Below are positions 7,734 through 52,467 of a DNA stretch of 64,000 nucleotides, piece after piece. Below the pieces are notes generated by a model. It was not told the DNA's origin, ran no database searches, and saw only the letters and a list, made by a program, of their open reading frames with translations. The DNA is taken from the sequence record SRR31156797_2307. One strand, given 5' to 3'. The first letter of the stretch is position 1. Each line of letters opens with the position of its first letter. Position numbers and translations under genes: made by a program.

Positions 7734-9062
7734 ATGGACGATCGTTCTAAACTTGTTTTTGGAAATTTTAATTCAGAAGAGTATTGGAGAGACATAAATT
7801 ATGCCGAACTCCCTTCTTATAAAGATTTGCAAATTGAAAATATTGTTTCGGCTATGGACGAGATATTATTTCCATTTTGTAACGTGTCGAACGATACGCT
7901 CATAACACGGTATCCGATGGAGCAAATGCATTACGATTATTTAAACGAAATTGGCTTTTGTTTTCAAAACAAATCGATATTTAAAGAAAACGCTCAAAGT
8001 AATTACTGCAACTCTATAGAAAGTCAGGTGATTAAAGATGCGCAGAATCGGCTAAATAATATTGTGCCCAAAATATTTCGAATTGAACCTTTTTCAATAA
8101 TCCCAGATACAAAAGAGTTTTGTCGCATTTTTAATTCTCAAAATCTGTTTCCAAATATCGATGATGTAGTTAAAGTTAATTCCAAGATATTTTCTCATAA
8201 AATATCACACGAATTATTGGGAGAAAACCATGCAACTATTGTTTATTCAAGTGAAGAATTTGCAACCATAGGAACAAAAATGTTGGCTGATTCGAAAGCA
8301 GTTTTAGCAAAAGACCCTTATGGAGTATCTGGTAAAGGTAACTTTCTTATAGAATCGAAAGCAATGCTAAAGAGCTTATCGATGTTTATACTGAAACAGG
8401 AGAAAAAGGGAAAAGAAGTATGTTTTTTACTTGAAAAATTATTGGATAAGTATATTGATTTTTCATTCCAATTCGAAATTTCAGAAAACAATGATTTTCG
8501 AACTATTGCAATTCACGAAATGGAAAATAACAATTTTTGTTTCTCCGGTATCCGGGCAGCATCTGATAATTTAAAAAATATTTTGGAAAAAACACGTTAT
8601 TACGATACTGTTGTGAAAATTTCAGATTGTTTGTTCAATTCAGGTTATTTTGGGCCTGTTTGTCTCGACTCAATGATTACTTCTGATGGATTGGTAATTC
8701 CTATAATAGAGATAAATGCCAGAAGTTCAATGGGATTTATTAATCGTGCAATCGACCAGAGATTATCAGCCTCTAATTTGTCTAGCAAGCTATCATATTT
8801 TTCATTAGGCATAACCAAAAATTTCTCAATAAGTGAATTTTTATCTTGTTTAGAGAAATCAGAATTGCTGTTTCAAAAAAGTCGTCCATATGGAATAATA
8901 CCATTAACTACAACCACAATAACAATTAATGCAAAGTTGAACGAATATCCTTATAAAGGAAGGTTTTATTTCTCTATAGTGCCTAGTAAGCAATTCGATG
9001 AAACCATTATTTTAAAAATGCTAAAGGAGCAGTTTAACAAACTCGGAGCAAAGGTTTATTAA
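7734..9062 (+). CDS. ATP-grasp ligase (pre-ATP-grasp type seen in secondary-metabolite clusters)
   Basis: VNSK, KDPYGVSGKG loop, GYFGPVCLD and IEINAR motifs. Confidence 0.75.
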   Translation: MDDRSKLVFGNFNSEEYWRDINYAELPSYKDLQIENIVSAMDEILFPFCNVSNDTLITRYPMEQMHYDYLNEIGFCFQNKSIFKENAQSNYCNSIESQVIKDAQNRLNNIVPKIFRIEPFSIIPDTKEFCRIFNSQNLFPNIDDVVKVNSKIFSHKISHELLGENHATIVYSSEEFATIGTKMLADSKAVLAKDPYGVSGKGNFLIESKAMLKSLSMFILKQEKKGKEVCFLLEKLLDKYIDFSFQFEISENNDFRTIAIHEMENNNFCFSGIRAASDNLKNILEKTRYYDTVVKISDCLFNSGYFGPVCLDSMITSDGLVIPIIEINARSSMGFINRAIDQRLSASNLSSKLSYFSLGITKNFSISEFLSCLEKSELLFQKSRPYGIIPLTTTTITINAKLNEYPYKGRFYFSIVPSKQFDETIILKMLKEQFNKLGAKVY

Positions 9063-9064
9063 AT

Positions 9065-10174
9065 ATGAAAAAACAAGTTACAGCAATATTATGTTCGGGT
9101 GTTACTCTTGGAGCTTATAACCCTGCATTAATTTTACACCGAAAGTTTTCGGCATTAGGAATTGCTTCTGAATTGCAAACTTGTGAAACTCTCTTTTTTC
9201 AAGATAAGAAATTGAAGATTCTTGAGATGAAAAAAATGTTCCACAACAATTTCAAATTTGCATTGATGGGACAGAAAGTTTCAGGTACAGTACAAAACAA
9301 TTTCGATCCGTTTTTGCTGGAACAATTGTATGATAGATGGTATAGAAATGAAGTGCGAAATTTTATATTGTTTTCCGGATTTTGGATGGAAATAATAGAA
9401 GTTTTTTTCAAGAAATTTCCCAGTAACGATTACAATGTGAAAATATGCCACATGGACGCTGTTGAATCGGCTTCATGGAAATTGAAAAACTACAACCTGG
9501 AAGATTACGATAATATTTGGCTTTTTAATTGGGAACAGAAATCTATAAATAACTATATCTCCATTTCCGAAGACGATATAGTTCCTTTCGATGATCGAGA
9601 TAAAAGGTTGGTTATTCATGGAGGAGGATGGGGACTTGGTACTTATAAAGAAAAAATTGCATTTTTGGAATCGCAGAATATAAAACTAGATATTATCAAC
9701 TATGAGTATCGAGATATTACCAATTATAATTCTTCAAATCGGTATTTTATAATCAATCCCGATTGGAAAGCATGGGAGCCCAATGATTTAGGCGAATACA
9801 GCTTTCCTCCCTTTGGACGGTTCATACCTGGCTCAGAAGTTGAGTATACAACCCACAAAAATTATCCGGGTGTATATAATCTTATAATGAACAACGTTGG
9901 AATAATTAGCAAACCAGGAGGAGGAACAATAATCGATTCTTTATCGTCGGCAACGCCTATAATATTCCTTGATCCGTACGGTGACTATGAAAAAAAGAAT
10001 GCCGAATTAATTACCGATTTAGGATTGGGGATCTGGTTTGATGATTGGCAAAAATCTTCTTACTCTTTTGATCTACTTAAACAATGCCACGAAAATTTGG
10101 CTATCAAGAGAGAAGGACTTATTGATATAATGGATTTGTTTAAAGAAAAAAATCACGAAATAATAATTCAATAA
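9065..10174 (+). CDS. GT-B fold glycosyltransferase (UDP-glucuronosyltransferase/GT28-like)
   Basis: HGGGWGLG and ISKPGGGTIIDS...P...YE.KNA...LG.G nucleotide-sugar-binding C-terminal motifs. Confidence 0.65.
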   Translation: MKKQVTAILCSGVTLGAYNPALILHRKFSALGIASELQTCETLFFQDKKLKILEMKKMFHNNFKFALMGQKVSGTVQNNFDPFLLEQLYDRWYRNEVRNFILFSGFWMEIIEVFFKKFPSNDYNVKICHMDAVESASWKLKNYNLEDYDNIWLFNWEQKSINNYISISEDDIVPFDDRDKRLVIHGGGWGLGTYKEKIAFLESQNIKLDIINYEYRDITNYNSSNRYFIINPDWKAWEPNDLGEYSFPPFGRFIPGSEVEYTTHKNYPGVYNLIMNNVGIISKPGGGTIIDSLSSATPIIFLDPYGDYEKKNAELITDLGLGIWFDDWQKSSYSFDLLKQCHENLAIKREGLIDIMDLFKEKNHEIIIQ

Positions 10175-10177
10175 AAT

Positions 10178-10429
10178 ATGAGCGTAGAAGAAAAAGTTAA
10201 AGCTGTACTTGTAGAAGTCAAATCATTGAATGGTAATGATGTTAAATGGAACGGTGATATAGACATTATCAACGATATTGGAATGGATTCACTTCAAATC
10301 ATTAATTTCTTATTAAAACTTGAAGATCACTTAGATATTGAGATCGATTTTGAAGAGTTCAATTACAACCATCTCCGTTCGCTGGAAAAATTCTGTAGTT
10401 TTCTTCAAAAAAACTATGATTTAAACTAA
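10178..10429 (+). CDS. Free-standing acyl/peptidyl carrier protein
   Basis: 83 aa, acidic, DIGMDSLQ phosphopantetheine attachment motif. Confidence 0.9.
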   Translation: MSVEEKVKAVLVEVKSLNGNDVKWNGDIDIINDIGMDSLQIINFLLKLEDHLDIEIDFEEFNYNHLRSLEKFCSFLQKNYDLN

Positions 10430-10436
10430 TGGCATA

Positions 10437-11615
10437 ATGGCAGATTATCCACAGACAAAACGATTGATAGACAGTGATTCATTTGAGCGTGTAAGAAACA
10501 CGGTTAAAAACATTGCTTTATCACGTAAAATGCGTAAAGAAAATCCTTCGTATGCCCTCGATGTACCCGAAGAAGTAGGAATACAAGTAACTTATCGATG
10601 CAATCTGCGATGTAAGCATTGTTTCCAGTTGGGTGAAAGCGGTTTTTTTCATCACTATTCCGATAAGGTGAAAAATTCAGATTTGGATATCAAGGTAATC
10701 AAAAAAATCCTTGATTCTACTCAGCTCAATAATTCTAAGTTATATATATGGGGAGGTGAACCTTTTGTACATCGCGACTGGGATAATATAGCGCAAATGC
10801 TTAAAGATTATAACCGATGGATTGTTTTATGCACAAATGGATTGTTATTAAAAGACAAAATCGACACAATACTTGATGTGTCAGAAAATCTCGTTTTGTT
10901 GGTAAGTCTTGAGGGATTTGAAAAAGAACAGGATGCTTTACGGGGAAGAGGAACATACCAGCGTTTGATGCATAATCTGGAATATATTTTCGAGTTAAAA
11001 AGGAAAGGTTTATACAAAGGTCTTGTATCACTACATTTGGTTATTTCCGATGAAATGGCTCCTCGTCTTAACGAGTTTATGGAATATTGGGATCAAAAAG
11101 ATATCGATACTATTTATTTTTGTTTTCCCTGGTACATATCCGATTCAACTGCCGAAATGATGGACAACTATTATGAAACTAATTTTAATTGGTTGAACAA
11201 ATTGCCTGAAAATAAAAGTGCCAGTTGGTACGGTTATTCCTATAATCTAAAAAGTGAATCGCTTGAAGTTATGAAAGAGCAGTTTGCTTTATTGTCTTCA
11301 AAGGTTTGGAATGCCCGTATACGGTTCAATCCTCCTATTGGGCCCAACGAGTTTAAAGATTTCATCGAAGGAAGTCATATTCCCGGGTGTAACATTTCTA
11401 ATTGTTATGCTATTTCAAACCGAATGGATGTTCTTGCCGATGGTTCGGTAACATCATGCCAGTTATTTCCAGAATTCAGTATAGACAATTTATACGATAA
11501 TGAAGTGTTAGAGGTATGGAAGGGAGAAAAGTTCAATAATGCCCGGGAAATAATAAACAAGGGCTTAATGCCAATTTGTTCTAAATGTGCCTTATTGTAT
11601 CTAAATAGCAGATAA
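10437..11615 (+). CDS. Radical SAM enzyme with SPASM/twitch domain
   Basis: CNLRCKHC, GGEP, TNG; C-terminal C...C...CSKC auxiliary-cluster cysteines. Confidence 0.9.
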   Translation: MADYPQTKRLIDSDSFERVRNTVKNIALSRKMRKENPSYALDVPEEVGIQVTYRCNLRCKHCFQLGESGFFHHYSDKVKNSDLDIKVIKKILDSTQLNNSKLYIWGGEPFVHRDWDNIAQMLKDYNRWIVLCTNGLLLKDKIDTILDVSENLVLLVSLEGFEKEQDALRGRGTYQRLMHNLEYIFELKRKGLYKGLVSLHLVISDEMAPRLNEFMEYWDQKDIDTIYFCFPWYISDSTAEMMDNYYETNFNWLNKLPENKSASWYGYSYNLKSESLEVMKEQFALLSSKVWNARIRFNPPIGPNEFKDFIEGSHIPGCNISNCYAISNRMDVLADGSVTSCQLFPEFSIDNLYDNEVLEVWKGEKFNNAREIINKGLMPICSKCALLYLNSR

Positions 11616-11620
11616 TCAGA

Positions 11621-12703
11621 TTGGAAATGTTACCAAAGTGGATAGTTTTTCAGTTAACTAAAAGATGCAACCTTAGGTGTGAGATGTGCTATGAGTGGGG
11701 TAAAAATGGTACTTATTCTAAATCCGAAAACTTGGTAGATCTTGATTACAATGTTATTGAACAATCAATACTTGATACCGCATCTGCAAAGCCCAAATAC
11801 GAATTTTTTGGTGGTGAACCATTGTTATATCCCAAAATTTTTGATGTTATAGAACTCATCAAACAGAGGGAATGTATGGTTGATTTTCCTACAAACGGTT
11901 TTTTATTAAAGAAGCTAAAACACGAGATTGTAGATTCGGGGCCCGACTGCATTTGGGTGTCTATTGATGGCCCACGTGAAATTAATGACAAGCAAAGAGG
12001 CAATGGGGTATACAATAAAGCTATTGAGGGTATTAATGCCATTCAGGAGTTAAAAAGAGAAAAAAACAAGTTATTTCCCAAAATTGGTGTTACAACTGTA
12101 GTAACCAATAATAATTGGCAATTCATATCCGAATTTTTTAAAAACGATTTCGATTTAAAAACGGTCGATTTTGTAAATATTGAACTTCAGAGGTATTTAA
12201 CCCAGCATGAAATAGAATTATTTTCAAAAAGGTTAAACAACGAATTTAATATTCATTCAACATGTTCGGCAAATGGATATGTTGTTCCATCCGATTATTT
12301 TAAAGGAATAAATTTTGCGGAATTGTCTCGGCAACTCAAAGATTTAAAAGAAATTTGTCGTCAACAAAATGTAATGTTGAATTTTACGCCTAACATTGTT
12401 GAAGCAAATGACTTGCAAAATTACTTCTCAGGTAACTGGACGAAAATACCTGTTTGGGATGAAAAATGTTTCCTGCCATGGATTTATCTCGAGATTGCAG
12501 CAAACGGCAATGTTACAACATGTCCCACATTTTATGATGTTTCACTAGGTAATGTTTACGAAAAAAAATTGCTTGAAATATTTAAAGGCGATATGATGAA
12601 AAAAATGCGCAAAAGCGTAAGAAAAGAACTCTTTTCGATCTGTTACGCCTGTTGCAGACACTATCAAGAATCCCAGAAAAAAACGGGGCTTACTTATAAT
12701 TAA
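11621..12703 (+). CDS. Radical SAM enzyme with SPASM/twitch domain (start may be ATG 11627)
   Basis: CNLRCEMC, FGGEP, SIDG; CFLPW...C...CYACC. Confidence 0.9.
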   Translation: MEMLPKWIVFQLTKRCNLRCEMCYEWGKNGTYSKSENLVDLDYNVIEQSILDTASAKPKYEFFGGEPLLYPKIFDVIELIKQRECMVDFPTNGFLLKKLKHEIVDSGPDCIWVSIDGPREINDKQRGNGVYNKAIEGINAIQELKREKNKLFPKIGVTTVVTNNNWQFISEFFKNDFDLKTVDFVNIELQRYLTQHEIELFSKRLNNEFNIHSTCSANGYVVPSDYFKGINFAELSRQLKDLKEICRQQNVMLNFTPNIVEANDLQNYFSGNWTKIPVWDEKCFLPWIYLEIAANGNVTTCPTFYDVSLGNVYEKKLLEIFKGDMMKKMRKSVRKELFSICYACCRHYQESQKKTGLTYN

Positions 12704-12711
12704 TCTTAATT

Positions 12712-13683
12712 ATGAACATAGGTATACTAGGTGCTTCAAGAATAGCTCCTGATTCTATAATTTCACCTGCAAAAAAATTACTGGGTATTAATATTGTCGA
12801 TATTGCAGCAAGTAATAGCCAAAGAGCAGAAAAGTTTGCCCTCGATTATGGAATCCCCAGTTTTAAAACTAGTTACGATGAATTGATTGGTAGTCAGAAT
12901 ATTGACGTTGTATATATATCATTGAAAAATGACATGCACTTTGAATATGCTTTAAAGGCAATTGATAACAAAAAGCATGTTCTTATAGAAAAACCCATTT
13001 GTCTATCATACGAAGAGTTCAAAGTCATTGCTAAACTGGCAGAAAAACAAAAAGTTGTAGCTGTTGAAGCTATGATGGTAGAACATCACCCGTGGCAAAA
13101 TGCTATTTTAAACATTATCGATGAAAGGGAATATGGCTCAATTTTGAAAATTGATACGGTGAATGAATTTGTATTGGAGGGCCAAAACGATTACCGGTTT
13201 ACATCAGAACGTGGGGCAGGGGCCATTTACGATCTTGGGTGTTACTGTTTACAGTTTATCCAGAAAATGGTAGGACTTGAACATTCCGATATCAACTGTA
13301 ATTACAAAAGTAATAATGGTGGACGAGTAGATACTGAGTTTAATGCCGAAATGATAATTAATAATGTACAGGTAAATATTTCATGTTCTTTTAATAAACC
13401 ATTTAAAGCTTACCATCGTGTTGAGTGCGAAAAGGGTATTGTAGAAGTGAAGAACTTTTTTAGGGCTGGATTTGGGTATAATAAAATGAACATTCACTGC
13501 ACTGATAAAGTTTCGGAGAAAACCGATAAAGTCTCGTTCGATCCCATGAACTTTTACCACAATCAATTAAAAGATTTACAAGAAAATATTTATAACCGGA
13601 AACCGAATAAGTCGCTAGAAGAATCAGGCGAACGAGTACGAATTATGGAAATTTTGCATGATATAAAGCAATTGGTAAACTAA
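12712..13683 (+). CDS. Gfo/Idh/MocA family NAD(P)-dependent oxidoreductase
   Basis: IGILGASRIA Rossmann motif, KHVLIEKP and GGAxxDxGxY-like GAGAIYDLGCY. Confidence 0.9.
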   Translation: MNIGILGASRIAPDSIISPAKKLLGINIVDIAASNSQRAEKFALDYGIPSFKTSYDELIGSQNIDVVYISLKNDMHFEYALKAIDNKKHVLIEKPICLSYEEFKVIAKLAEKQKVVAVEAMMVEHHPWQNAILNIIDEREYGSILKIDTVNEFVLEGQNDYRFTSERGAGAIYDLGCYCLQFIQKMVGLEHSDINCNYKSNNGGRVDTEFNAEMIINNVQVNISCSFNKPFKAYHRVECEKGIVEVKNFFRAGFGYNKMNIHCTDKVSEKTDKVSFDPMNFYHNQLKDLQENIYNRKPNKSLEESGERVRIMEILHDIKQLVN

Positions 13684-13870
13684 CTGTTTTTTGTAAATAT
13701 AGACAAAAACTCAAAAGTTGTCGTCAACAGATACTTTCTTTATGGCTTATTTATCAGATAAATACAAATCCTGAACCTTTAAATAGGCGAAGCTAATCAA
13801 GCAATCAATGACAAGTTTACCTAATTCAGGAGATGCCTGTTTGCACAGTCATAATGTATAAACGAAAGAT

Positions 13871-20442: not shown

Positions 20443-20470
20443 TCAGGTTAGGTTATATAAAAATGAAAAA

Positions 20471-22749: not shown

Positions 22750-22885
22750 TTTACGGTTGGCTGTGTGAGCCTACTATTATTTTAGGTGCAAAAAAATACT
22801 TGATGACAAATAAATATTATTTGTAGGTGTTTTGTTTTGTAATAACCTGTTCTTTAAAATCACATTAATTTACAACCAATTTAGA

Positions 22886-40577: not shown

Positions 40578-40766
40578 AAATACAGTGTTGCTATTCTCAC
40601 CAGAGAGCTGACACCAACACTTACTGTTTCTGATGATGGAAGATATGTCGTGCTTGGTTTAGCTCATAAATATTTGTTCTATGACATGGAAAAAGACGAA
40701 GTACTCGATTGTATTATCCAGTTTGGTGAAAGAGGAAGGGGGCATGCAATTAATTTTTATAAATAA
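40578..40766 (+). pseudogene. Unannotated C-terminal remnant of a fourth His-rich propeller-family paralogue
   Basis: Translates as KYSVAILTRELTPTLTVSDDGRYVVLGLAHKYLFYDMEKDEVLDCIIQFGERGRGHAINFYK*, closely matching the C-terminus of 40801..42246. Confidence 0.9.
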
Positions 40767-44770: not shown

Positions 44771-46186
44771 ATGATTGCATATGTTAAAAAGTTGGTAAAT
44801 AATAATGTAGTTCTGCACGATCTGAAATCGTTATTGGTTTTCAGAGCTAAGGAATTTCTATATGCAAAGAAAGTAGGTAGTCTTTCTAAAGTCGTATTTG
44901 ATTTCCCTACGGTTAAAGGATTGCCCAAGATCGATTGCAAATTTCTTAATTCAGATATCTGTCATGATTTTAGTTTCAACGGATCGGCCATAGATGTTAT
45001 CGATTTCAACAATAAAAAAGTAGAACGTTATTTAACCACAGCTCCCAGACTTTCACGTGCAATTAAACTTAGTAAAAAGACTGTAAAACGGGGCAATATG
45101 CCAAAAGGATTGGGTTATTTTGCATATTTTGATGCACATAAAATTACCCCGCATACTTGTCATTTATCTCCAAATGGTTATTTATTGGCAACCAATAAAT
45201 ACTATATCTATTTTATCGATACAAAAAGCAATAAGCTATATATTCTGCCGGGAAATTACGATAAACGGTTGATGCTTTATTGCGATACAGGAGGTTTTTC
45301 GCCAGACTATAAATATTGGTATTTTGTTCGTTGGCCTTATGAAGATACCATGGCAATACGAGCCAATAAAAGAGAAAGGGCACGTTGTGAGATTTGTCGT
45401 GTTGAATTAGAAACCCGCGAAATTGAAATAATTGATGTAATTGATTATTTCGACGATGTGCATCAAGTTGCCTTATCGAGCGACAATAAATATCTTTTGT
45501 TTACAACCTTTATGCAAGTACCGCATGTGCCGTATCCAAACGATATTTCTATTGAAAAGAATGCCAATGGATACAAAAAAAGCCATCAGAGTGGTTTAAA
45601 GATGGCAACCATGGTAACTTATAACCTGGAAACAAAGAGTTATAAAGAAACAGATGTTCCGGTACCTGTTCCGGCTCATTTTGAGTTCGACCCAAATCTT
45701 ATACATGTATGTTACTTATCTGCACATAACTTTGTCTTTCATAAAAACAAGGTAGTTCTCGAAGGTTCAGGCAAACTTTTTAGGGTTCAGATTAACGACG
45801 GTAAGGTGCTTTTAACACATGGATACTCAAACCAGGAATTTTTTCGGATACAAAACCATACAGTATTTATGTACAATGGTAAAACGTATGTGGGCATCTC
45901 AACCACTCCTTTTAAATTCGAACTAATTGATGCAGAGGATTTAACGGTGTGGAGAAAAATACGTATTTTCCCTGATCCTCCGCCTGATTTGAGCCTTACA
46001 GGAAACGCGTTATGGAAAGGTGGTCCGCCACTAACCCTAAACACTTCTTCTGATGGTAAATATATAGTGTGTGGTATGCAACAGTTTTTTGGAATTTATG
46101 ACGTTGAAAACGAGGCAATGTTAGACGTTTTATTGCCACTTCCAAAAGGACGGGGACAAGGACATACAAGAGATTTGGGTAAATAA
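44771..46186 (+). CDS. Uncharacterised His-rich putative beta-propeller protein (paralogue C)
   Basis: 471 aa; PHTCH, GGFSPDYKYWYFVRWPY, HQ, PAHFEFDP, SAHNF and GRGQGH shared with paralogue A. Confidence 0.7.
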   Translation: MIAYVKKLVNNNVVLHDLKSLLVFRAKEFLYAKKVGSLSKVVFDFPTVKGLPKIDCKFLNSDICHDFSFNGSAIDVIDFNNKKVERYLTTAPRLSRAIKLSKKTVKRGNMPKGLGYFAYFDAHKITPHTCHLSPNGYLLATNKYYIYFIDTKSNKLYILPGNYDKRLMLYCDTGGFSPDYKYWYFVRWPYEDTMAIRANKRERARCEICRVELETREIEIIDVIDYFDDVHQVALSSDNKYLLFTTFMQVPHVPYPNDISIEKNANGYKKSHQSGLKMATMVTYNLETKSYKETDVPVPVPAHFEFDPNLIHVCYLSAHNFVFHKNKVVLEGSGKLFRVQINDGKVLLTHGYSNQEFFRIQNHTVFMYNGKTYVGISTTPFKFELIDAEDLTVWRKIRIFPDPPPDLSLTGNALWKGGPPLTLNTSSDGKYIVCGMQQFFGIYDVENEAMLDVLLPLPKGRGQGHTRDLGK

Positions 46187-46271: not shown

Positions 46272-46949
46272 ATGATAAAGATAGAAAATCTCACCAAGGT
46301 GTTTTTAACCGACGAGGTAGAAACAACCGCGTTAAATGATATAAAAATACATATTAAAGAAAAAGAGTTTGTAGCAATAATGGGACCTTCGGGGTGTGGA
46401 AAATCAACAATGCTTAATATTTTAGGTTTAATAGATAATCCAACAAGTGGTCTTTATTATTTTGGCGGAGTTGAAGTTTCAAAATTTAATGAAAGACAAT
46501 GCGCCAATATGAGAAAAGGAAACATCGGGTTTATATTTCAAAGTTTTAACTTAATTGATGAATTGTCTGTTTATGATAATGTTGAACTTCCTCTATTGTA
46601 TTTAAAAGTACCGAAATCTGAACGAAAAGAACGTGTTTATCAAGTACTCGACAGGATGGATATTACACATCGTACAAAACATTTTCCACAGCAATTGTCA
46701 GGAGGTCAGCAGCAAAGGGTAGCTGTTGCTAGGGCATTGGTTACAAACCCCAAAGTAATTCTTGCTGATGAGCCAACTGGTAATCTCGATTCGAAAAATG
46801 GAGATGAGGTTATGAGAATGTTGGAAGAATTGAACCAGGAAGGTACAACTATAGTAATGGTAACCCACTCGAAATCGCATGCAGAAAGGGCACACAGAAC
46901 CATTAACCTGTTTGATGGAAAAGTTTCAGACAATTCAATCGAAATATAA
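46272..46949 (+). CDS. ABC transporter ATP-binding protein (MacB/LolD-like)
   Basis: GPSGCGKST, LSGGQQQR, ADEPTGNLD and VTH. Confidence 0.95.
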   Translation: MIKIENLTKVFLTDEVETTALNDIKIHIKEKEFVAIMGPSGCGKSTMLNILGLIDNPTSGLYYFGGVEVSKFNERQCANMRKGNIGFIFQSFNLIDELSVYDNVELPLLYLKVPKSERKERVYQVLDRMDITHRTKHFPQQLSGGQQQRVAVARALVTNPKVILADEPTGNLDSKNGDEVMRMLEELNQEGTTIVMVTHSKSHAERAHRTINLFDGKVSDNSIEI

Positions 46950-47023: not shown

Positions 47024-47803
47024 GTGACGAATCAAATTAAAATTTTATTTACTAATTTTGATGAACCTCTTTCTGATGTTTTATATGGAAAATATTTCGA
47101 TCTGCTACCAATAGATCAGAAAGAAAAAAATGAACGATTTATACGATGGCAAGACAGACATTCACATTTATTTGGAAGGCTATTGTTAAGAACCGGATTA
47201 GAATTGTATGTTCAAGAACCTAATTGTTTGGACGACCTGCAGTATAACAAATATAATCGACCTTTCATTAACGAAGAAATTGATTTCAATATTTCACATT
47301 CAGGAATCTATGTGATATGTGCATTTGGTAAAGGTTTAAATCTTGGTGTTGACATTGAGAAAGTTCAAATTTTGGAATTAGAAGACTTCAATAAAGTAAT
47401 GACACAGGATCAATGGCAGGATATTAACAAAGATATGAATCCCATGTGGACTTTCTTTAAATATTGGACAATAAAGGAAAGCGTAATTAAAGCAGATAGT
47501 CGCGGATTGTCAATCCCTCTTGAGGATATACATGTTAAAAATAATCAAGTTTCTTATGATAATTCTACATGGTATCTCCATCAGTTAGATTTTGATCAGG
47601 AGTATTGCGCTTGTTTGGCAACGAATGTTCAAAATGTCGATGTTTCTTTCAAGTATATTGATTTTTATTCGGAGAATGGAGAATGGAACAAGGACAACGA
47701 CCCCACTTACGCTAAAGCTTTGGTGGAGGAAGAGATTAAGGCGACGGAAAACTGGAGACAAATAGTTTGTGCTAGATCAATGACTACTAATAACCGTATA
47801 TGA
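47024..47803 (+). CDS. Sfp-type 4'-phosphopantetheinyl transferase
   Basis: FNISHSG, GVDIE and WTIKESVIKA motifs; the last ~40 aa probably read through repeat-like DNA. Confidence 0.92.
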   Translation: MTNQIKILFTNFDEPLSDVLYGKYFDLLPIDQKEKNERFIRWQDRHSHLFGRLLLRTGLELYVQEPNCLDDLQYNKYNRPFINEEIDFNISHSGIYVICAFGKGLNLGVDIEKVQILELEDFNKVMTQDQWQDINKDMNPMWTFFKYWTIKESVIKADSRGLSIPLEDIHVKNNQVSYDNSTWYLHQLDFDQEYCACLATNVQNVDVSFKYIDFYSENGEWNKDNDPTYAKALVEEEIKATENWRQIVCARSMTTNNRI

Positions 47804-47860: not shown

Positions 47861-47882
47861 TTTCAAAACTTGTAACTTAAAA

Positions 47883-48761
47883 ATGATTACCGCCGAAAAT
47901 ATATACATGCATTATCCAGTGCCTAAAAAGTACATTGAGTATATAACCAAACCATTTAAACAAGATAGTTTTACTGCCCTTCATGGACTGAATTTGAAAA
48001 TAGATACTGGAGACCGTGTAGCTTTCTTGGGCACAAACGGAGCAGGGAAAACAACCTTTTTAAAAATTATCGGAGGTCTTTTATATCCTACTTCGGGTAC
48101 ACTCGCTGTTAATGGGTATGATACGACCAAAGAAAATTTGAAAGCTCGCAATAATGTAGGTTTTGTGCTTAATGAAGAACGTAGCTTTTATTGGAGATTA
48201 ACAGGTAAGCAGAATTTAGAATTTTTCGGAACATTGGATAATTTGCAGGGTAATGAATTTCAACATAAAGTGCAAGAATTAATTAAACTTGTTGGTTTGG
48301 AAGATGCACAACACAAGTTATTTGCAGGATATTCTTCCGGTATGAAACAACGGTTGGCTATTGCCCGTGGATTATTATCTGACCCTGATATTCTGATTTT
48401 GGATGAACCAACCCGAACCTTAGATCCTATATCGGCAGAAGATATTTCCCACATTATTTCAGACCGAATACATAGCAAGAAAGGAAGAACCCTATTAATT
48501 GCCACACATAATTTAACAGAAGCACAAGCGCTATGCAATAAAGCATGTATAATGAAAAAAGGCAAAATATTGGTTTATTCAGAAATCGTAAAACTATTAG
48601 CTGAATATGGTTCATTGGAAAGATGTTATAAAACATTAATTGGGTCGGAGAAGAAAGACAGGAACATAAAGAAAGTGTTAGAGGAGAAAAGAGCATGGAA
48701 ACAGGAGACAGAAACTCCCATTACAATCAATGACATAATGACAAACAATGTCAACAAATGA
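47883..48761 (+). CDS. ABC-2 type exporter ATP-binding protein
   Basis: GTNGAGKTT, YSSGMKQR, LDEPT and ATH. Confidence 0.93.
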   Translation: MITAENIYMHYPVPKKYIEYITKPFKQDSFTALHGLNLKIDTGDRVAFLGTNGAGKTTFLKIIGGLLYPTSGTLAVNGYDTTKENLKARNNVGFVLNEERSFYWRLTGKQNLEFFGTLDNLQGNEFQHKVQELIKLVGLEDAQHKLFAGYSSGMKQRLAIARGLLSDPDILILDEPTRTLDPISAEDISHIISDRIHSKKGRTLLIATHNLTEAQALCNKACIMKKGKILVYSEIVKLLAEYGSLERCYKTLIGSEKKDRNIKKVLEEKRAWKQETETPITINDIMTNNVNK

Positions 48762-48790
48762 CTATCCATGACCAGTAACTAATGACCAAA

Positions 48791-48826
48791 TATCCAATAA
48801 CAAAAAATAACTTTAGCTCACTCGTA
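48791..48826 (+). repeat. 36-nt direct repeat, copy 2 (upstream of the ABC-2 permease)
   Basis: TATCCAATAACAAAAAATAACTTTAGCTCACTCGTA, preceded by AATGAC/ATGAC iterations and followed by (T/C)GTAAC iterations. Confidence 0.85.
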
Positions 48827-48855
48827 ATTTGTAACTTTTAACTCGTAACTTTTTT

Positions 48856-49671
48856 ATGACTAAATTATACAAAGCAAAAGCCTTTATAAAACGTGATTTC
48901 ACCATTCTACTAAGCTATAAAATGGCTCTCATCACAACAACAATGGGAACAATTTTCCCTTTATTGACTTATTTTTTTATTTCAAAATTAGTTCCGGACG
49001 GAACTTCACAAGTAGGACTAGCCCAATTTGGTGGCGATTACTTTTCATTTACGTTAATAGGCATTGCATTTACAACTTATTTTGTCATGGCTGTTCAGGA
49101 ATTTTCAGCAACTACGCGACGCGATCAAATGGCTGGCTGTTTGGAAGCTCTGTTAAGTTCGCAAACAGATATGAAATCAATAATTTTCATGTCGGCCTTA
49201 TTTAAATTTATCCACAACGGAACCGTCCTGATATTTATGTTTCTGGTGTCTGCATTGTTTTTAGGTTTTGATTTTTCTAATACTAATATCCCTTCCTTGC
49301 TAATCACAATATTCCTTTCCATGATTGTATTTATTAGCTTAGGTATTTTTTCAGCTGCTGGTACAATCATATTTAAGCAAGGAGAGCCGTTTGGATTGAT
49401 TTTTGGGTCATTAAGTTCCCTGCTGGGAGGAGCTGTATTCCCAATTGCACTTTTGCCTGCCGGATTAAAGATCGTATCAGTTATTATCCCCATTACTTAT
49501 TCATTAGATGCGTTACGTTTATCCATTTTAAAAGGATATTCAATAGCAATGCTCTCTAAAGAACTAATAATTCTTGGATCTATAGCATTAATAATTCTTC
49601 CAATGAGTTTAATCTTTTTTGAATGGGCTGTGGAAAAAGGCAAAAGAGAGGGGACATTGATGCAATACTAA
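48856..49671 (+). CDS. ABC-2 type exporter permease
   Basis: About six TM helices, G.LE.LL, GGAVFPIALLP, PITYSLDALR and C-terminal REGTL..Y. Confidence 0.9.
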   Translation: MTKLYKAKAFIKRDFTILLSYKMALITTTMGTIFPLLTYFFISKLVPDGTSQVGLAQFGGDYFSFTLIGIAFTTYFVMAVQEFSATTRRDQMAGCLEALLSSQTDMKSIIFMSALFKFIHNGTVLIFMFLVSALFLGFDFSNTNIPSLLITIFLSMIVFISLGIFSAAGTIIFKQGEPFGLIFGSLSSLLGGAVFPIALLPAGLKIVSVIIPITYSLDALRLSILKGYSIAMLSKELIILGSIALIILPMSLIFFEWAVEKGKREGTLMQY

Positions 49672-49732: not shown

Positions 49733-50986
49733 ATGGATAAATTAAGAAAAAAGAAACCCTGGATACAACGATATATCTGGTATGTAATTATTAGTGCAGC
49801 TATATTAGTCTTAACAATAAACCAGTTAGCTTTCGCTGATCATAGTTCTAAACTAAATGTTGACATTGAAAAATTAAGTGTTAAGAGTGTTAAGTATGAT
49901 ACATTTCAAGAATATATAAGTTTGAATGGTACGGTTGAACCCATTAGAGCAATAAGTATTTTGCCATTAGTAGGAGGAAAAGTTGAAGAGAAACTAAAAG
50001 AGGAGGGTGATACAGTAAAGCGGAATGATGTTATTTTGAGATTAAAAAATCCCGAACTTGAGCAGATGATAATTGACCTTAGGGCCGAATTAGATAGAGA
50101 AAAAGTAGGCTTGCGCCAAAGTGTGATTAATGAGGAAAAGAAAAGGGCAGACTTAAAAAGTCAATTATTGGAGATGGAGTTTTCAATAAATAATGAGAGG
50201 AGAAGTTTTGAAGAAAGAGAGTATGAGTTTAATAAAGGAATGATTCCTAAAAATAGTTATTTAAAGGCTAAAGAATCCTATGAATACGCTCTAAAGAAGA
50301 ATAATATATTAATTAAGAATATTCAAAGAGATTCTATACTTAGTGAATTAAATATTGAATTACTAAAAAATAAACTAAAACAAAAAGAAGAAAATTTCAG
50401 AATCGAGGAACGAAAGTTAGATAACCTTAATGTTAAGGTTCCTTTAGATGGTCGATTAAGTTCGTTGGAAGTGGAGTTAGGAGGTCAATTGGTAAAAAAC
50501 CAAAAGATTGGTTATATAAGAGATTTATCAGATTTGAAAATAGTTGCTTCTATAGATGAGCATTATTCAAGTAGAATTAGTGAAGAATTGAGAGCAACTT
50601 GTGAGGTAAATAATCAACCCTATAGTGTTTACATTGACAAAGTATCTTCGGAAGTTGTTAATGGTAAGTTTCAGATAGAATTATTATTTGATAAGGAACG
50701 ACCCGATATGATAAGAGTAGGACAATCGTATAGGATTATATTACAGCTAGGAGAGCCAAAGCAGTCCCTGCTTATCCCAAGGGGAGGATTTTATCAAAGT
50801 ACAGGAGGTCAATGGATTTTTGTAATAGATAAAACAGAAGAATATGCCTATAAAAAAGAGATAAAATTAGGCAGGCAAAACCCATCTTGCTATGAAGTCA
50901 TAGAAGGATTAGAATCAGGAGATAAAGTTATCGTGTCCGGTTATGAGAATTATGGTGATGTTGAAAAACTAGTGTTAAAGAAATGA
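49733..50986 (+). CDS. Efflux transporter periplasmic adaptor subunit (HlyD/MacA-like)
   Basis: N-terminal TM helix, lipoyl-like GGKVEE...EGD.V, coiled coil, GGFYQSTGGQWIFV and GLESGDKVIVSGY. Confidence 0.9.
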   Translation: MDKLRKKKPWIQRYIWYVIISAAILVLTINQLAFADHSSKLNVDIEKLSVKSVKYDTFQEYISLNGTVEPIRAISILPLVGGKVEEKLKEEGDTVKRNDVILRLKNPELEQMIIDLRAELDREKVGLRQSVINEEKKRADLKSQLLEMEFSINNERRSFEEREYEFNKGMIPKNSYLKAKESYEYALKKNNILIKNIQRDSILSELNIELLKNKLKQKEENFRIEERKLDNLNVKVPLDGRLSSLEVELGGQLVKNQKIGYIRDLSDLKIVASIDEHYSSRISEELRATCEVNNQPYSVYIDKVSSEVVNGKFQIELLFDKERPDMIRVGQSYRIILQLGEPKQSLLIPRGGFYQSTGGQWIFVIDKTEEYAYKKEIKLGRQNPSCYEVIEGLESGDKVIVSGYENYGDVEKLVLKK

Positions 50987-52467
50987 TAAATATGAAGGTA
51001 GTAGTAGGTTTATTGTTTCTAATATATTGCTCAATAAATAGCTCTTTTTCTCAAGAAGTTAGGACGATTACTCTTGAAGAGGCGATTAATCTAGCACAGG
51101 ACAAATCGTTAGATGCATTTATCTCGAAGCATATGTATTTGAAAAGTTATTGTGAGTTTAAAGCATATCAAGCCTCCAGAAAGCCTTGGTTAAGTCTATA
51201 TGCAGATCCTGTTATTTATAATAATTCGATTTCAAAAGTTACAGAAACTAGCGGAACTTCTCTTGTAAGATCTGAAAGTTTTGAAACTAATGGTAATATA
51301 TCATTATCACAAACAATTGCCCCAACAGGTGGAAATGTTTTCATTAATTCAAGCTTTGATAGATTACTAGATTATGAATATGATAATACGTATTATAGTT
51401 CAGTTCCTGTTTCTATTGGTTTTTCCCAACCTCTATTTCAGTTTAACAAATACAAGTGGGAAAGAAAGTTGGAACCATTAAAATTTGAGAAAGCTAAGTT
51501 GGAATATATTTCATCATCCGAGGAGTTAGCCATAAAAACAATTGGGTATTACTTTAATCTAATTGATGCAAAACTATCATACAATATTGCGTTAGGTAAT
51601 AGTGGTGCTGCTGATTCCTTATATTACAAGAGTAAAGGAAGATTTGAAAGAGGAGCAATATCTTTTAATGATCTTCAGCGTTTGGAATTAAATAAAATAA
51701 ATGCAAAAATTGTTTGTGACAAGTCTAAATTATACTTACAACAAGTAGATTTCCAATTCAAAACTTTTTTGCGACTTCCGACAGATATCAATTTAGAATT
51801 GATATTACCATTAGATATTCCAAAGATTAAAATTAATCCCCAAGAAGCACTGGAAAAGTCTTTGATAAATAACCCTATTGTAATTGGATTTAAACAATCT
51901 ATGATTCAAGCTGATCGAGAAATAGCAAAAGTTAAAGGAGATTATGGTATAACATCAACAATAACAAGTAAATTCGGATTTAGTCAATCTGGAAATTCAG
52001 TACATGAAGCATATAATGATTTGGACAAAGACAGAAGGGTGTCATTAGGATTGTATATCCCAATAATAAATTGGGGGATGAGAGATAAGCAGTTAGAATT
52101 GCGGAAATCAAATAAAGAAATAGTTACTGCGCAAATAGAAATGGACAGGATTAGTTTTGAACAAAATGTGATAATGAGTACACTAGAGTTTAATATGAAG
52201 GAATCTATTTTGGAAAGTGCTCAGAAAGCAAATATTATTTCCGAAAAGACATATACAACAACCGAAGAAAGTTTTTTATTAGGTAAATCAAATCTCGAGA
52301 CACTCTATGCTGCAAGGAATGAGAGGGATAATGCTTTAAGAGCATATTATAATTCAATCAGAGAATCTTGGAATAGTTATTATTTAATAAGGTATATTAC
52401 TTTATATGATTTTTGGGGGATGAAAAGTCTTTCAAAAGAATTTGATGACAAATTAGATATTAAATAA
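50983..52467 (+). CDS. TolC-family outer membrane efflux protein
   Basis: Signal peptide, ITLEEAI.LA, QPLFQFN..KW..KLEPL and LYIPIINWG; adjacent to the adaptor gene. Confidence 0.88.
   Translation: MINMKVVVGLLFLIYCSINSSFSQEVRTITLEEAINLAQDKSLDAFISKHMYLKSYCEFKAYQASRKPWLSLYADPVIYNNSISKVTETSGTSLVRSESFETNGNISLSQTIAPTGGNVFINSSFDRLLDYEYDNTYYSSVPVSIGFSQPLFQFNKYKWERKLEPLKFEKAKLEYISSSEELAIKTIGYYFNLIDAKLSYNIALGNSGAADSLYYKSKGRFERGAISFNDLQRLELNKINAKIVCDKSKLYLQQVDFQFKTFLRLPTDINLELILPLDIPKIKINPQEALEKSLINNPIVIGFKQSMIQADREIAKVKGDYGITSTITSKFGFSQSGNSVHEAYNDLDKDRRVSLGLYIPIINWGMRDKQLELRKSNKEIVTAQIEMDRISFEQNVIMSTLEFNMKESILESAQKANIISEKTYTTTEESFLLGKSNLETLYAARNERDNALRAYYNSIRESWNSYYLIRYITLYDFWGMKSLSKEFDDKLDIK

What the first reader, a model, noticed from the sequence alone, without database searches (positions are those of the whole stretch)
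7734..52467. Uncharacterised ~45-kb sulfotransferase-PKS/NRPS cluster with seven radical SAM genes in a probable Bacteroidota genome
Seen: one co-oriented run containing an ATP-grasp ligase, glycosyltransferase, free ACP, two sulfotransferase-terminated PKSs, one NRPS module, seven radical SAM genes, a PPTase and two exporters, with no thioesterase and no conventional loading module. Known: each family acts in natural-product assembly. Inference: a short hybrid scaffold (about two extensions plus one amino acid) that is heavily tailored by oxygen-independent radical chemistry and sulfated. I do not recognise this gene combination from any characterised pathway.
Basis: partly seen in the sequence, partly recalled or inferred. 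Interest (0 to 1): 0.93.

Follow-up and report, generated by a model that had tools for sequence, protein, structure and literature searches.

The report
Orphan sulfotransferase-PKS/NRPS cluster, partly decayed
This is a real, uncharacterised gene cluster for a small polyketide-peptide product, built around a widespread but undescribed four-gene cassette, with some accessory genes broken and probable links to neighbouring polysaccharide genes.

Summary
Three points need correcting.

- Two of the seven radical-SAM ORFs are pieces of broken B12-type genes. One has a frameshift near 38255. The other has an in-frame TAA at 39525 and a truncated C-terminus.
- "No thioesterase" misses two alpha/beta-hydrolases directly after the NRPS. 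One carries Cys at the nucleophile position.
- The system probably extends past 52467 into Wzy/GT4/MurJ genes.

Genes 7734-15145 (ATP-grasp, GT-B glycosyltransferase, ACP, rSAM-SPASM) form a cassette with no Pfam or NCBIfam model for its ATP-grasp and GT members. Its ATP-grasp gene recurs in 134 metagenome stretches, and named homologues occur in Paenibacillus, Pedobacter, Niastella and Kribbella. It usually sits with sugar-modifying genes and ABC-2 exporters and rarely with thiotemplate enzymes.

One metagenome contig (L085) carries cassette, NRPS, hydrolase pair and the same polysaccharide gene families, but no PKS. The window therefore reads as that layout with two sulfotransferase-PKS modules inserted.

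PKS1 is KS-AT0-ACP-ST. PKS2 is KS-AT-KR-KR-ACP-ACP-ST. PKS1 has only three ~50% orthologues, and PKS2 has none above 34%. I found no characterised match, but MIBiG and antiSMASH were not available. The product and the chemistry are inferred.

The parts
7734..9062 (+). Pre-ATP-grasp/ATP-grasp ligase (442 aa), member of the conserved cassette
   Evidence: No Pfam or NCBIfam hit. Atlas neighbours score 0.96-0.98 and include a BtrJ-named cluster. Family profile vs PDB hits 8ynd at E 3.1e-6. There are 89 homologues, best 52% identity. Invariant K151, K193, G197-G202 loop, D312 and E326-x-N328.
9065..10174 (+). GT-B fold glycosyltransferase-like protein (GT28/GT1-like), cassette member
   Evidence: AF2 pLDDT 91.8. 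Foldseek hits CalG3 and MurG at E ~5e-10. VIA gives MurG Z 20.3 and MGD1 Z 19.5. Homologue found in 68 of 80 cassette loci.
10178..10429 (+). Free acyl carrier protein (83 aa), cassette member
   Evidence: PP-binding E 1.2e-8. The Ser of the D-S-L site is conserved in 52 of 53 family members.
10437..11615 (+). Radical SAM/SPASM enzyme, core type of the cassette
   Evidence: Radical_SAM plus SPASM. Every NCBIfam hit is far below its cutoff. Homologue found in 60 of 80 loci, up to 49% identity.
11621..12703 (+). Radical SAM/SPASM enzyme, second type (paralogue of 14102)
12712..13683 (+). GFO/IDH/MocA sugar-type oxidoreductase
   Evidence: NCBIfam hits to sugar/inositol dehydrogenases are below cutoff. 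Homologue found in 22 of 80 loci.
14102..15145 (+). Radical SAM/SPASM enzyme, second type
15164..19003 (+). PKS1: KS - dead AT remnant - ACP - sulfotransferase (1279 aa)
   Evidence: Pfam. Residues 505-808 align to the PKS2 AT with the active Ser replaced by Asn. KS keeps Cys/His/His and the ST loop is conserved. Three orthologues at 49-52% identity.
19102..20442 (+). Alkaline-phosphatase-superfamily enzyme (Phosphodiest family)
   Evidence: PF01663 E 5.1e-26. No C/S-x-P-x-R sulfatase motif. No NCBIfam hit.
20420..21277 (+). Short radical SAM/SPASM protein (285 aa)
21295..22749 (+). MiaB/RimO-like radical SAM methylthiotransferase homologue
   Evidence: UPF0004 plus Radical_SAM. TIGR00089 scores 160 bits, below the 251 cutoff. 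Homologues at 38-44% identity beside the cassette in 4 loci; a fifth hit (L120, 24%, 56 bits) is weak.
22832..30367 (+). PKS2: KS-AT-(psiKR-KR)-(psiKR-KR)-ACP-ACP-sulfotransferase (2511 aa)
   Evidence: Pfam on the whole protein and on pieces. Motifs read. No homologue above 34% identity over the C-terminal 1132 residues.
30397..33636 (+). NRPS module C-A-T (1079 aa)
   Evidence: The C domain keeps His-His-x-x-x-Asp and the A4 motif is atypical.
33636..34421 (+). Alpha/beta-hydrolase 'hyd2' with Arg at the nucleophile position
   Evidence: TIGR03101 scores 100 bits, below the 203 cutoff. The Arg is conserved in the L085 and L056 homologues.
34444..35274 (+). Alpha/beta-hydrolase 'hyd1' with Cys at the nucleophile position; candidate release enzyme
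   Evidence: TIGR03100 scores 103 bits, below the 168 cutoff. G-x-C-S-G is conserved in L085 and L056.
35306..37711 (+). MacB-type FtsX permease (801 aa)
37752..39261 (+). B12-binding radical SAM gene 1, split by a frameshift in an A-run near 38249-38257
   Evidence: The paralogue aligns colinearly and the alignment changes frame between 38255 and 38257.
39324..40514 (+). B12-binding radical SAM gene 2, with an in-frame TAA at 39525-39527 and the C-terminal part missing
   Evidence: The NCBIfam match covers only positions 100-350 of a 443-position model.
40515..40766 (+). Remnant (about 50 codons) of the C-terminus of a fourth propeller copy
40801..42246 (+). His-rich seven-bladed beta-propeller, paralogue A (481 aa), no family
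   Evidence: No Pfam or NCBIfam hit. 149 representative homologues. Invariant H136, H239, H310, R370, H475. AF2 pLDDT 92.0. Generic propeller matches at Z 22-25.
42760..43593 (+). Propeller paralogue B, N-terminally truncated (277 aa; aligns to residues 212-479 of A)
43663..44763 (+). Two-domain YjgF/RidA-like protein, distantly FkbO/Hyg5 chorismatase-like
   Evidence: TIGR04444 E 1.7e-11, 43.9 bits, below the 325 cutoff. No PDB sequence hit at E 0.01 or better.
44771..46186 (+). Propeller paralogue C (471 aa, 39% identical to A)
46272..46949 (+). ABC ATPase (MacB/LolD-like)
47024..47803 (+). Sfp/HetI-type phosphopantetheinyl transferase
47883..49671 (+). ABC-2 exporter (ATPase 47883-48761, permease 48856-49671)
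49733..52467 (+). HlyD-type adaptor and OEP/TolC outer-membrane channel
52616..63499 (+). Probably linked polysaccharide genes: Wzy_C, 3-keto-disaccharide-hydrolase-like, two GT4, MurJ-type flippase, and three ORFs with no family
   Evidence: Pfam. The same five families sit beside the cassette, NRPS and hydrolases in L085. GT4b and MurJ sit beside the ATP-grasp gene in L096, and GT4b beside the cassette in L086. GC falls to 27-29% here.

Best explanation
This is a real, mostly intact and uncharacterised thiotemplate locus that is composite.

Its core is a widespread four-gene cassette: a stand-alone ACP, a BtrJ-like ATP-grasp ligase, a GT-B glycosyltransferase and a radical SAM/SPASM enzyme. 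In a sub-group of loci this cassette feeds an NRPS C-A-T module followed by a conserved pair of alpha/beta-hydrolases. In this genome two sulfotransferase-bearing PKS modules lie between the cassette and that NRPS.

Proposed flow (all steps inferred unless marked otherwise):
1. The ATP-grasp enzyme loads a carboxylate, probably an amino acid, as a thioester on the free ACP, as BtrJ does on BtrI. This replaces a loading module.
2. The PKS1 KS has an intact Cys/His/His (shown). It takes this starter and extends it once. Its own AT is dead (shown), so malonate comes from the malonyl-type AT of PKS2 or from FabD.
3. PKS2 extends once more. Its two KR didomains reduce the two keto groups.
4. The two PAPS-type ST domains, whose binding loops are intact (shown), sulfate hydroxyls on the ACP-bound chain.
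5. The C-A-T module adds one amino acid selected by an atypical A domain.
6. The Cys hydrolase hyd1, with its Arg-substituted partner hyd2, releases the chain. Release may displace a sulfate.
7. The GT-B enzyme, the SPASM enzymes, the GFO oxidoreductase and the MiaB-like enzyme add and modify a sugar or the starter.
8. The product is exported by the MacB/HlyD/TolC and ABC-2 systems, or joined to the glycan made by the adjacent Wzy/GT4/MurJ genes.

The B12-rSAM and propeller array at 37.7-46.2 kb is a decaying accessory region.
For: - Gene families and domain order.
- Dead AT in PKS1.
- Catalytic motifs intact in KS, AT, KR, ACP and ST.
- ATP-grasp identity and a BtrJ-named neighbour cluster. 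BtrJ/BtrI function comes from a passage of PMC11350588. The ATP-grasp signature comes from passages of PMC4431377.
- Cassette conservation: 134 related stretches, of which 80 were examined. GT-like in 68 of 80, rSAM in 60 of 80, ACP ORF in 52 of 80.
- Among 37 loci with enough flank: GT-like 34, rSAM 34, ACP 27, all three 24.
- ACP Ser conserved in 52 of 53.
- L085 carries ACP, ATP-grasp, GT-B, rSAM, NRPS C-A-T, PPTase, hyd2, hyd1 and Wzy_C, 3-keto-like, GT4a, GT4b, MurJ. Twelve families are shared with the window and there is no PKS.
- A-domain/NRPS genes lie within 10 kb of the cassette in 10 of 80 loci. These include the three loci whose ATP-grasp is most similar to the window's (L085, L095, L100).
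- MiaB-like genes at 38-44% identity lie beside the cassette in 4 loci, so PKS genes here are interleaved with cassette-associated genes.
- Two ATP-grasp homologues share their longest-contig length with an ST-PKS homologue: P0162 with P0006 at 52309 bp, and P0168 with P0011 at 149784 bp.
- PKS proteins with ST fused to C or C-A domains exist (P0123, P0125, P0130, P0147, P0148).
- The hydrolase pair with Cys and Arg at the nucleophile positions is conserved in L085 and L056.
Against:
- In 80 cassette loci a PKS is essentially absent within 10 kb. There is one weak hit (L117, 77 bits). The cassette does not need a PKS and may act on something unrelated.
- The BtrJ link rests on language-model similarity and one weak PDB profile hit. 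No BtrK, BtrO or BtrH homologue is present.
- PKS1 has no KR, so the substrate hydroxyl of its ST is unexplained.
- The contig-length coincidences are indirect. I could not fetch those contigs.
- The shared polysaccharide families are only 26-39% identical between L085 and the window, and GC drops at 52.6 kb. This could mark a separate island.
- Two rSAM genes and one propeller are broken, so part of the locus is not under selection.
- Transcription could not be examined.
Confidence: 0.5

Rival explanations
1. One reading: one self-contained 45-kb natural-product cluster. All seven radical SAM enzymes tailor a short PKS-NRPS scaffold, and the end product carries sulfate esters.
For: All genes are co-oriented with short gaps. 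Both ST domains look intact. A PPTase and exporters are present. No TE is fused to either ST, so CurM-type decarboxylative olefin formation is not encoded in cis.
Against: Three SPASM enzymes belong to a cassette that stands without any PKS in most loci. Two B12-rSAM genes are broken. A hydrolase pair that could use sulfate as a leaving group follows the NRPS. Shared polysaccharide genes in L085 suggest the system is larger than 45 kb.
Confidence: 0.2
2. Two or three independent systems lie side by side. One is a glycan- or sugar-modifying cassette (7.7-15.1 kb), perhaps serving the polysaccharide locus. One is a separate ST-PKS/NRPS metabolite. One is a decaying B12-rSAM/propeller array.
For: The cassette is usually accompanied by sugar genes (GFO in 17 loci, GT2 in 5, DegT in 3, FkbM methyltransferase in 7) and ABC-2 exporters (21-25 loci), and not by PKS. 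PKS1 orthologues and the closest ATP-grasp homologue have different longest-contig lengths: 13918, 18006 and 12752 versus 24091.
Against: L085 joins cassette, NRPS and hydrolase pair in one run. The MiaB-like gene, a recurrent cassette neighbour, lies between PKS1 and PKS2. The PKS line has no other loading device. No excess of terminator-like sites was found, which is weak evidence.
Confidence: 0.2
3. A relic: the cluster is no longer functional and is being eroded.
For: A frameshift, a nonsense codon with truncation, a truncated propeller and a 50-codon remnant all lie within 37.7-43.6 kb.
Against: ORFs of 2511, 1279 and 1079 codons are uninterrupted and keep their catalytic motifs in AT-rich DNA. 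The damage is confined to a tandemly duplicated accessory array. The frameshift lies in a homopolymer and could be a sequencing error; this could not be checked because the read tool was unreachable.
Confidence: 0.1

Closest known systems
CurM / olefin synthase (Ols) terminal modules, KS-AT-KR-ACP-ST-TE (mechanism recalled; papers seen only as a search listing)
   Same: A PAPS-type Sulfotransfer_3 domain lies directly after the ACP of a KS-AT-KR module. The PAPS-binding loop and a following P-P-E segment are present in both window ST domains. Cyanobacterial ST-TE proteins are among the homologues.
   Different: No TE is fused. The ST occurs twice, once in a module with a dead AT and no KR. PKS2 has two KR didomains and two ACPs. 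The line continues into an NRPS C-A-T module. Identity to any ST-TE protein is 41% or less over partial alignments covering 24-43% of the query region.
Butirosin BtrI/BtrJ aminoacyl-ACP priming (passage of PMC11350588)
   Same: A stand-alone ACP lies next to a pre-ATP-grasp/ATP-grasp ligase. A cluster named after BtrJ is among the nearest language-model neighbours at 0.97.
   Different: No PLP decarboxylase, monooxygenase or acyltransferase of the butirosin side-chain pathway is present. Sequence similarity was too low for Pfam or NCBIfam. The substrate is unknown.
Metagenome locus L085 (uncharacterised; 25.6-kb contig)
   Same: It shares ACP, ATP-grasp (39%), GT-B (40%), rSAM-SPASM (37%), NRPS C-A-T (30%), hyd2 (35%), hyd1 (35%), Wzy_C, 3-keto-disaccharide-hydrolase-like, two GT4 and MurJ.
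   Different: It has no PKS, no ST, no B12-rSAM/propeller array, a different PPTase subfamily and a different A-domain motif.
Exosortase-A-associated hydrolase 1 / hydrolase 2 (TIGR03100 / TIGR03101)
   Same: Two adjacent alpha/beta-hydrolases are the best NCBIfam matches (E 1.7e-29 and 1.3e-28).
   Different: Both score below the curated cutoffs (103 vs 168 bits, 100 vs 203 bits). No exosortase or PEP-CTERM genes were seen in the window.
MurG / MGD1 (GT28) and natural-product GT1 glycosyltransferases
   Same: GT-B fold: MurG Z 20.3 with 281 residues aligned, MGD1 Z 19.5, GT1 enzymes Z 18-19.6. A Gly-rich loop and a conserved Glu lie in the C-terminal half.
   Different: Identity is 9-16%. Pfam does not recognise it. 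Donor and acceptor are unknown.

Membership tests
Modular type I PKS | KS with Cys/His/His, a carrier domain with the phosphopantetheine Ser, and an AT | tested here: met
   Pfam domains. KS motifs and ACP Ser read. PKS2 AT has G-H-S-V-G. PKS1 AT is degenerate with Ser replaced by Asn.
CurM/Ols-type olefin-forming terminal module | ST domain followed by a fused thioesterase (ACP-ST-TE) | tested here: not met
   No Thioesterase or alpha/beta-hydrolase domain was found in either PKS. Both proteins end about 60-85 residues after the ST.
CurM/Ols-type olefin-forming terminal module | KR in the same module to provide the beta-hydroxyl that is sulfated | tested here: inconclusive
   PKS2 has two KR didomains. 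PKS1 has none.
ATP-grasp superfamily | Conserved Lys residues, Asp in the kinase-like domain, Gly-rich loop and ExN motif (as listed in PMC4431377 passages) | tested here: met
   Invariant K151, K193, G197-V-S-G-x-G202, D312 and E326-I-N328 in 28 sequences. Profile hit to 8ynd at E 3.1e-6. Atlas 0.96-0.98. Assignment of each residue to its structural position was not checked on a model.
BtrJ-type carrier-protein ligase | Acylates a stand-alone ACP with an amino acid | not testable with these tools
   Only adjacency to an ACP (52 of 80 loci) and language-model similarity are available.
GT-B glycosyltransferases | Two Rossmann-like domains with the nucleotide-sugar site in the C-terminal domain | tested here: met
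   AF2 pLDDT 91.8. Foldseek and VIA matches cover the whole length. Catalytic activity was not tested.
Radical SAM / SPASM | CxxxCxxC cluster motif plus a C-terminal SPASM Cys-rich domain | tested here: met
   Pfam Radical_SAM plus SPASM for 10437, 11621, 14102 and 20420. The motif was found by pattern search in 20420 and is visible in the printed translations of the other three. No named NCBIfam subfamily reaches its cutoff.
B12-binding radical SAM | An N-terminal B12-binding domain and a radical SAM core in one polypeptide | tested here: not met
   Both copies are interrupted: a frameshift at 38255/38257, and a TAA at 39525 with a missing C-terminus.
Carotenoid/stilbene cleavage oxygenases (considered for the propellers) | Seven-bladed propeller with a four-His iron site; family-level structural similarity | tested here: inconclusive
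   Four invariant His and a seven-bladed propeller. ACO and CAO1 appear in Foldseek (E 1e-11, TM 0.47-0.49) but do not stand above generic propellers. They are not among the 50 rows at Z 22-25 shown by the wide search. No Pfam hit.
FkbO/Hyg5 chorismatases | Score above the family cutoff | tested here: not met
   TIGR04444 scores 43.9 bits against a 325 cutoff. No PDB sequence match. A distant relationship remains possible.
RiPP cluster (considered because of SPASM enzymes) | A precursor peptide gene and a peptide-recognition element on the maturase | tested here: inconclusive
   The only conserved small ORF in the cassette is the ACP. ORFs under 70 aa were not clustered. No RRE search was done.

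The most novel reading that the evidence does not exclude
The ACP / ATP-grasp / GT-B / rSAM-SPASM cassette is an undescribed, widely distributed pathway. It builds a carrier-protein-bound, radically modified and glycosylated aminoacyl unit. That unit is used either on its own (exported by ABC-2 pumps) or as the starter of NRPS or PKS lines, and it ends up on Wzy-dependent surface glycans. In this genome two mid-line sulfotransferase domains activate hydroxyls, and a Cys hydrolase displaces the sulfate to close a ring. This would be a use of PKS-embedded ST domains outside terminal-olefin formation.
Probability: 0.2. Interest if true: 0.8.

Novelty: new variant of a known kind. Interest (0 to 1): 0.6.

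Why it matters
PKS-embedded sulfotransferases are characterised only as ST-TE pairs that make terminal olefins. Here ST domains occur twice and without a TE. One sits in a module with a dead AT, and both lie upstream of an NRPS and a Cys hydrolase. PKS proteins with ST fused to condensation domains also exist in metagenomes. A second role for these domains therefore becomes directly testable.

Independently, the four-gene cassette has no Pfam or NCBIfam model for two of its members, yet it is present in cultivable genera (Paenibacillus, Pedobacter, Niastella, Kribbella). That gives tractable hosts for finding out what it makes. Its repeated placement beside Wzy/GT4/MurJ genes suggests a link between thiotemplate chemistry and surface glycans.

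Tried and rejected
- **Synteny through the PKS genes.** A genome-contig scan with PKS2 alone found no relative. A scan with the PKS1 alignment returned 80 generic PKS loci at 46% identity or less, matching query residues 1-939 only. None held other cluster genes except the hydrolase pair in L056.
- **Whole genome of the window.** Not held.
- **Cassette in Bacteroidota genomes.** 0 of 301 sampled genomes at E 1e-20 or better. There was no positive control, so this only says not found in those searched.
- **Taxon.** MetK matches 399 of 401 sampled Bacteroidota, best 69% identity over the full length. Five genomes of other phyla give 53-58%. This is compatible with Bacteroidota, but no close relative was found.
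- **NRPS substrate.** The strong LgrA hit is the sum of two A domains at about 160 bits each and says nothing about specificity. The A4 region is atypical. I did not assign a substrate.
- **AP-family gene plus short SPASM gene as a sulfatase/maturase pair.** Rejected, because no C/S-x-P-x-R motif is present.
- **Propellers as carotenoid-cleavage-type oxygenases.** Not resolved.
- **Rfam on the whole window.** 0 matches.
- **Promoter and terminator scans.** Counts are no higher than in shuffles, except a weak promoter-like excess in the second region (123 vs 103 ± 10.5). The scan does not cover Bacteroidota-type promoters.
- **Read and RNA evidence.** The look-up of sequencing runs was unreachable in 7 tries, so the frameshift and transcription remain unchecked and read laying was not used.
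- **Paper searches.** Searches found no description of this gene combination, of the cassette, or of ST domains used mid-line. These searches cover open-access text only.

Full report
**Observation**

The window is almost entirely + strand coding sequence. Between 7734 and 52467 there are 28 ORFs of 100 aa or more, plus an 83-aa ORF.
- a free ACP (10178-10429);
- two PKSs that each end in a Sulfotransfer_3 domain;
- one NRPS C-A-T module;
- seven ORFs with a Radical_SAM hit;
- an Sfp-type PPTase;
- a MacB-type permease with ABC ATPase, HlyD and OEP/TolC;
- an ABC-2 exporter.

- For 7734-9062, language-model neighbours are PreATP-grasp/ATP-grasp clusters at 0.96-0.98. A profile of 28 homologues hits the ATP-grasp peptide ligase 8ynd at E 3.1e-6. 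The alignment keeps invariant two Lys, a Gly-rich loop, an Asp and an E-x-N motif. These are the features listed for the superfamily in passages of PMC4431377.
- For 9065-10174, an AF2 model built on 42 homologues (pLDDT 91.8) is a GT-B fold. MurG scores Z 20.3, MGD1 Z 19.5, and GT1 natural-product and plant enzymes Z 18-19.6, a tie.

**Corrections to the observation**

First, two of the seven rSAM ORFs are fragments.
- ORFs 37752-38258 and 38353-39261 match the N- and C-terminal parts of B12-binding rSAM models.
- The neighbouring paralogue, read through with X at its stop, aligns colinearly to both. The alignment changes frame between 38255 and 38257, inside an A-run.
- That paralogue (39324-40514) has an in-frame TAA at 39525-39527. 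It stops at model position 350 of 443.
- It is followed in frame by a remnant of about 50 codons of a propeller gene's C-terminus.
- One of the three propeller paralogues (42760) lacks its first ~210 residues.

Second, no PF00975 thioesterase is present, but two alpha/beta-hydrolases follow the NRPS, and the first overlaps its stop codon.
- Their best NCBIfam matches are the exosortase-A-associated hydrolases 2 and 1, both below cutoff.
- At the nucleophile elbow, hyd2 has Arg and hyd1 has Cys.
- Both features are kept in the homologous pairs of L085 and L056.

**PKS and NRPS anatomy**

PKS1 is KS-AT0-ACP-ST.
- Residues 505-808 align with the PKS2 AT around the active site, where G-H-S has become A-D-N.
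- The KS keeps Cys/His/His in the window and in its three closest orthologues.

PKS2 is KS-AT-(psiKR-KR)-(psiKR-KR)-ACP-ACP-ST.
- It has an intact KS and an AT with G-H-S-V-G and an H-A-F-H segment. I recall that segment as malonyl-type.
- Both KRs keep Tyr and Asn. Both ACPs have G-G-D-S-L. The ST has the P-R-S-G-S-T loop.
- No DH, ER or MT domain was detected.

The NRPS C domain keeps H-H-x-x-x-D. The A domain has an unusual A4 segment and differs from the A domains of related loci. The strong LgrA match is only the sum of two ordinary A-domain hits. I assign no substrate.

**Relatives of the PKS genes**

- Among 5.8 billion clustered proteins, PKS1 has three full-length orthologues at 49-52% identity. 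All are on 12.7-18 kb metagenome contigs. Two more have the same architecture at 34%.
- The C-terminal 1132 residues of PKS2 have no relative above 34% identity at comparable (42-43%) coverage; shorter alignments over about a quarter of the region reach 41%.
- The same search shows proteins in which KS-AT-KR-ACP-ST is fused to C or C-A domains (P0123, P0125, P0130, P0147, P0148). An ST followed by an NRPS module is therefore a recurrent, uncharacterised arrangement.
- Scans of one genome per species found no syntenic locus.

**The cassette**

The ATP-grasp protein has 89 homologues at E 1e-5 or better, the best at 52% identity. Named ones come from Paenibacillus, Pedobacter, Niastella, a Leptolyngbyaceae cyanobacterium and Kribbella.

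A metagenome scan with their alignment found 134 related stretches, and 80 loci were kept.
- By tblastn with all window proteins, a GT-like homologue is in 68 of 80, a 10437-type rSAM in 60, an 11621/14102-type hit in 59, a GFO oxidoreductase in 22, and a MiaB-like gene in 5, one of them a weak hit at 24% identity.
- By ORF clustering, the ACP family is in 52 of 80, usually just upstream of the ATP-grasp gene and on the same strand.
- Of 37 loci with enough flank, 34 have the GT, 34 an rSAM, 27 the ACP and 24 all three.
- The ACP Ser is conserved in 52 of 53.
- Other frequent neighbours are an ABC ATPase (25 loci) with two ABC2_membrane_6 permeases (23 and 21), an FkbM methyltransferase (7), GT2 (5), a DegT aminotransferase (3) and SAM methyltransferases.
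- PKS is essentially absent: one weak hit, L117.
- A-domain/NRPS genes are present in 10 loci. These include L085, L095 and L100, whose ATP-grasp proteins are the most similar to the window's.
- In 301 sampled Bacteroidota genomes the ATP-grasp profile found nothing at E 1e-20. That search had no positive control.

**L085**

This 25.6-kb contig reads: GT4, GT4, Bac_transf, GT4, GT4, MurJ, unknown, Wzy_C, 3-keto-disaccharide-hydrolase-like, ACP, ATP-grasp, GT-B, rSAM-SPASM, NRPS C-A-T, PPTase, hyd2, hyd1, AMP-binding-like.
- Twelve of these families have their best match in the window, at 26-43% identity.
- They include the five polysaccharide families found at 53241-63499.
- L096 has GT4b and MurJ next to the ATP-grasp gene (54% and 61% identical to the window's), and L086 has GT4b (46%) just after the cassette.

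The window therefore looks like an L085-type system into which PKS1, an AP-family gene, a short SPASM gene, a MiaB-like gene and PKS2 have come to lie between cassette and NRPS. The polysaccharide genes are probably part of the same system.

Indirect support for a wider cassette/ST-PKS association comes from contig lengths. P0162 and the ST-PKS P0006 both have a longest contig of 52309 bp. P0168 and the ST-PKS P0011 both have 149784 bp. I could not read those contigs.

**Other genes**

- The three propeller paralogues (35-39% identical to each other) belong to a small family of 149 representatives at E 1e-3 or better. It has invariant H136, H239, H310, R370 and H475.
- The model is a confident seven-bladed propeller (pLDDT 92.0). 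Structural matches are generic, and carotenoid oxygenases do not stand out. A metal site is a hypothesis only.
- 43663 is a two-domain YjgF-like protein with a weak chorismatase-family match and no PDB sequence match.
- 19102 is an alkaline-phosphatase-superfamily enzyme without a sulfatase motif.

**Mechanism**

Shown: the domain order, the dead AT, the intact catalytic motifs, the conserved cassette, the conserved hydrolase pair and the gene breaks.

Inferred:
- The ATP-grasp enzyme acylates the free ACP, as BtrJ acylates BtrI (passage of PMC11350588), and so provides the missing loading step.
- PKS1 and PKS2 add two malonate units, with the PKS2 AT serving both.
- The two KRs give two hydroxyls, which the two STs sulfate.
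- The NRPS adds one amino acid.
- The Cys hydrolase releases the chain.
- The GT-B enzyme, SPASM enzymes, GFO and MiaB-like enzymes tailor the starter or add and modify a sugar.
- The product is exported or attached to the neighbouring glycan.

Whether sulfate stays in the product or serves as a leaving group is open. In CurM/Ols it is a leaving group (recalled; the papers were seen only in the listing).

**Comparison and novelty**

- The locus fails the defining ST-TE feature of the CurM/Ols module.
- It is not a butirosin-type pathway.
- No named SPASM subfamily reaches its cutoff.
- It is a modular PKS-NRPS cluster, a known kind, with an unusual arrangement, joined to an undescribed cassette.
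- Five paper searches found nothing on this combination. They cover open-access text only, and MIBiG was not available.

I rate it a new variant of a known kind, with interest 0.6. Orphan clusters are common. The mid-line ST domains, the tandem KR, the widespread unmodelled cassette and the glycan link are each worth a test.

**Limits**

- There was no whole genome, no read or RNA evidence (tool unreachable in 7 tries), no access to earlier findings, and no contig look-up.
- The organism is compatible with Bacteroidota. MetK is up to 69% identical to sampled Bacteroidota against 53-58% for five other phyla. No close relative was found.
- Fragments 88-90% identical to propeller A exist in public data (P0250, P0269).

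Noticed in passing
window 52001-64000: GC falls from 31-37% in the cluster to 27-29% in the Wzy/GT4/MurJ region. This is typical of surface-polysaccharide loci and a possible island boundary.
   Followed up: partly
window 6527-7597: An Acyl_transf_3 membrane acyltransferase lies 137 bp upstream of the ATP-grasp gene. It could belong to the glycan side of the system. No homologue was found in the 80 cassette loci.
   Followed up: partly
L056:9879-11524: A Spongiibacteraceae MAG locus recovered through its PKS carries the same hydrolase pair, with Arg and Cys at the nucleophile positions, next to a PKS.
   Followed up: partly
proteins P0123, P0125, P0130, P0147, P0148: Metagenome proteins exist in which a KS-AT-KR-ACP-ST module is fused to condensation or C-A domains. 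ST domains used mid-line seem to form a class of their own.
   Followed up: no
proteins P0250 and P0269: Fragments of 289 and 87 aa are 88-90% identical to propeller 40801-42246. A close relative of this organism therefore exists in public assemblies as short contigs.
   Followed up: no
L095:2578-21334 and L100:1-15792: A sub-type of the cassette has a second SPASM gene, a fused ABC exporter, an FAD oxidoreductase, a stand-alone A domain with a small ORF after it, and (in L100) a 1237-aa NRPS.
   Followed up: partly
window 3240-3671 (- strand): This is the only sizeable minus-strand ORF that does not overlap a + strand gene (143 aa). It has no Pfam hit.
   Followed up: partly
window 13684-14101 and 42247-42759: These are the two largest non-coding gaps inside the cluster (418 and 513 bp). 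No Rfam match and no convincing terminator were found.
   Followed up: partly
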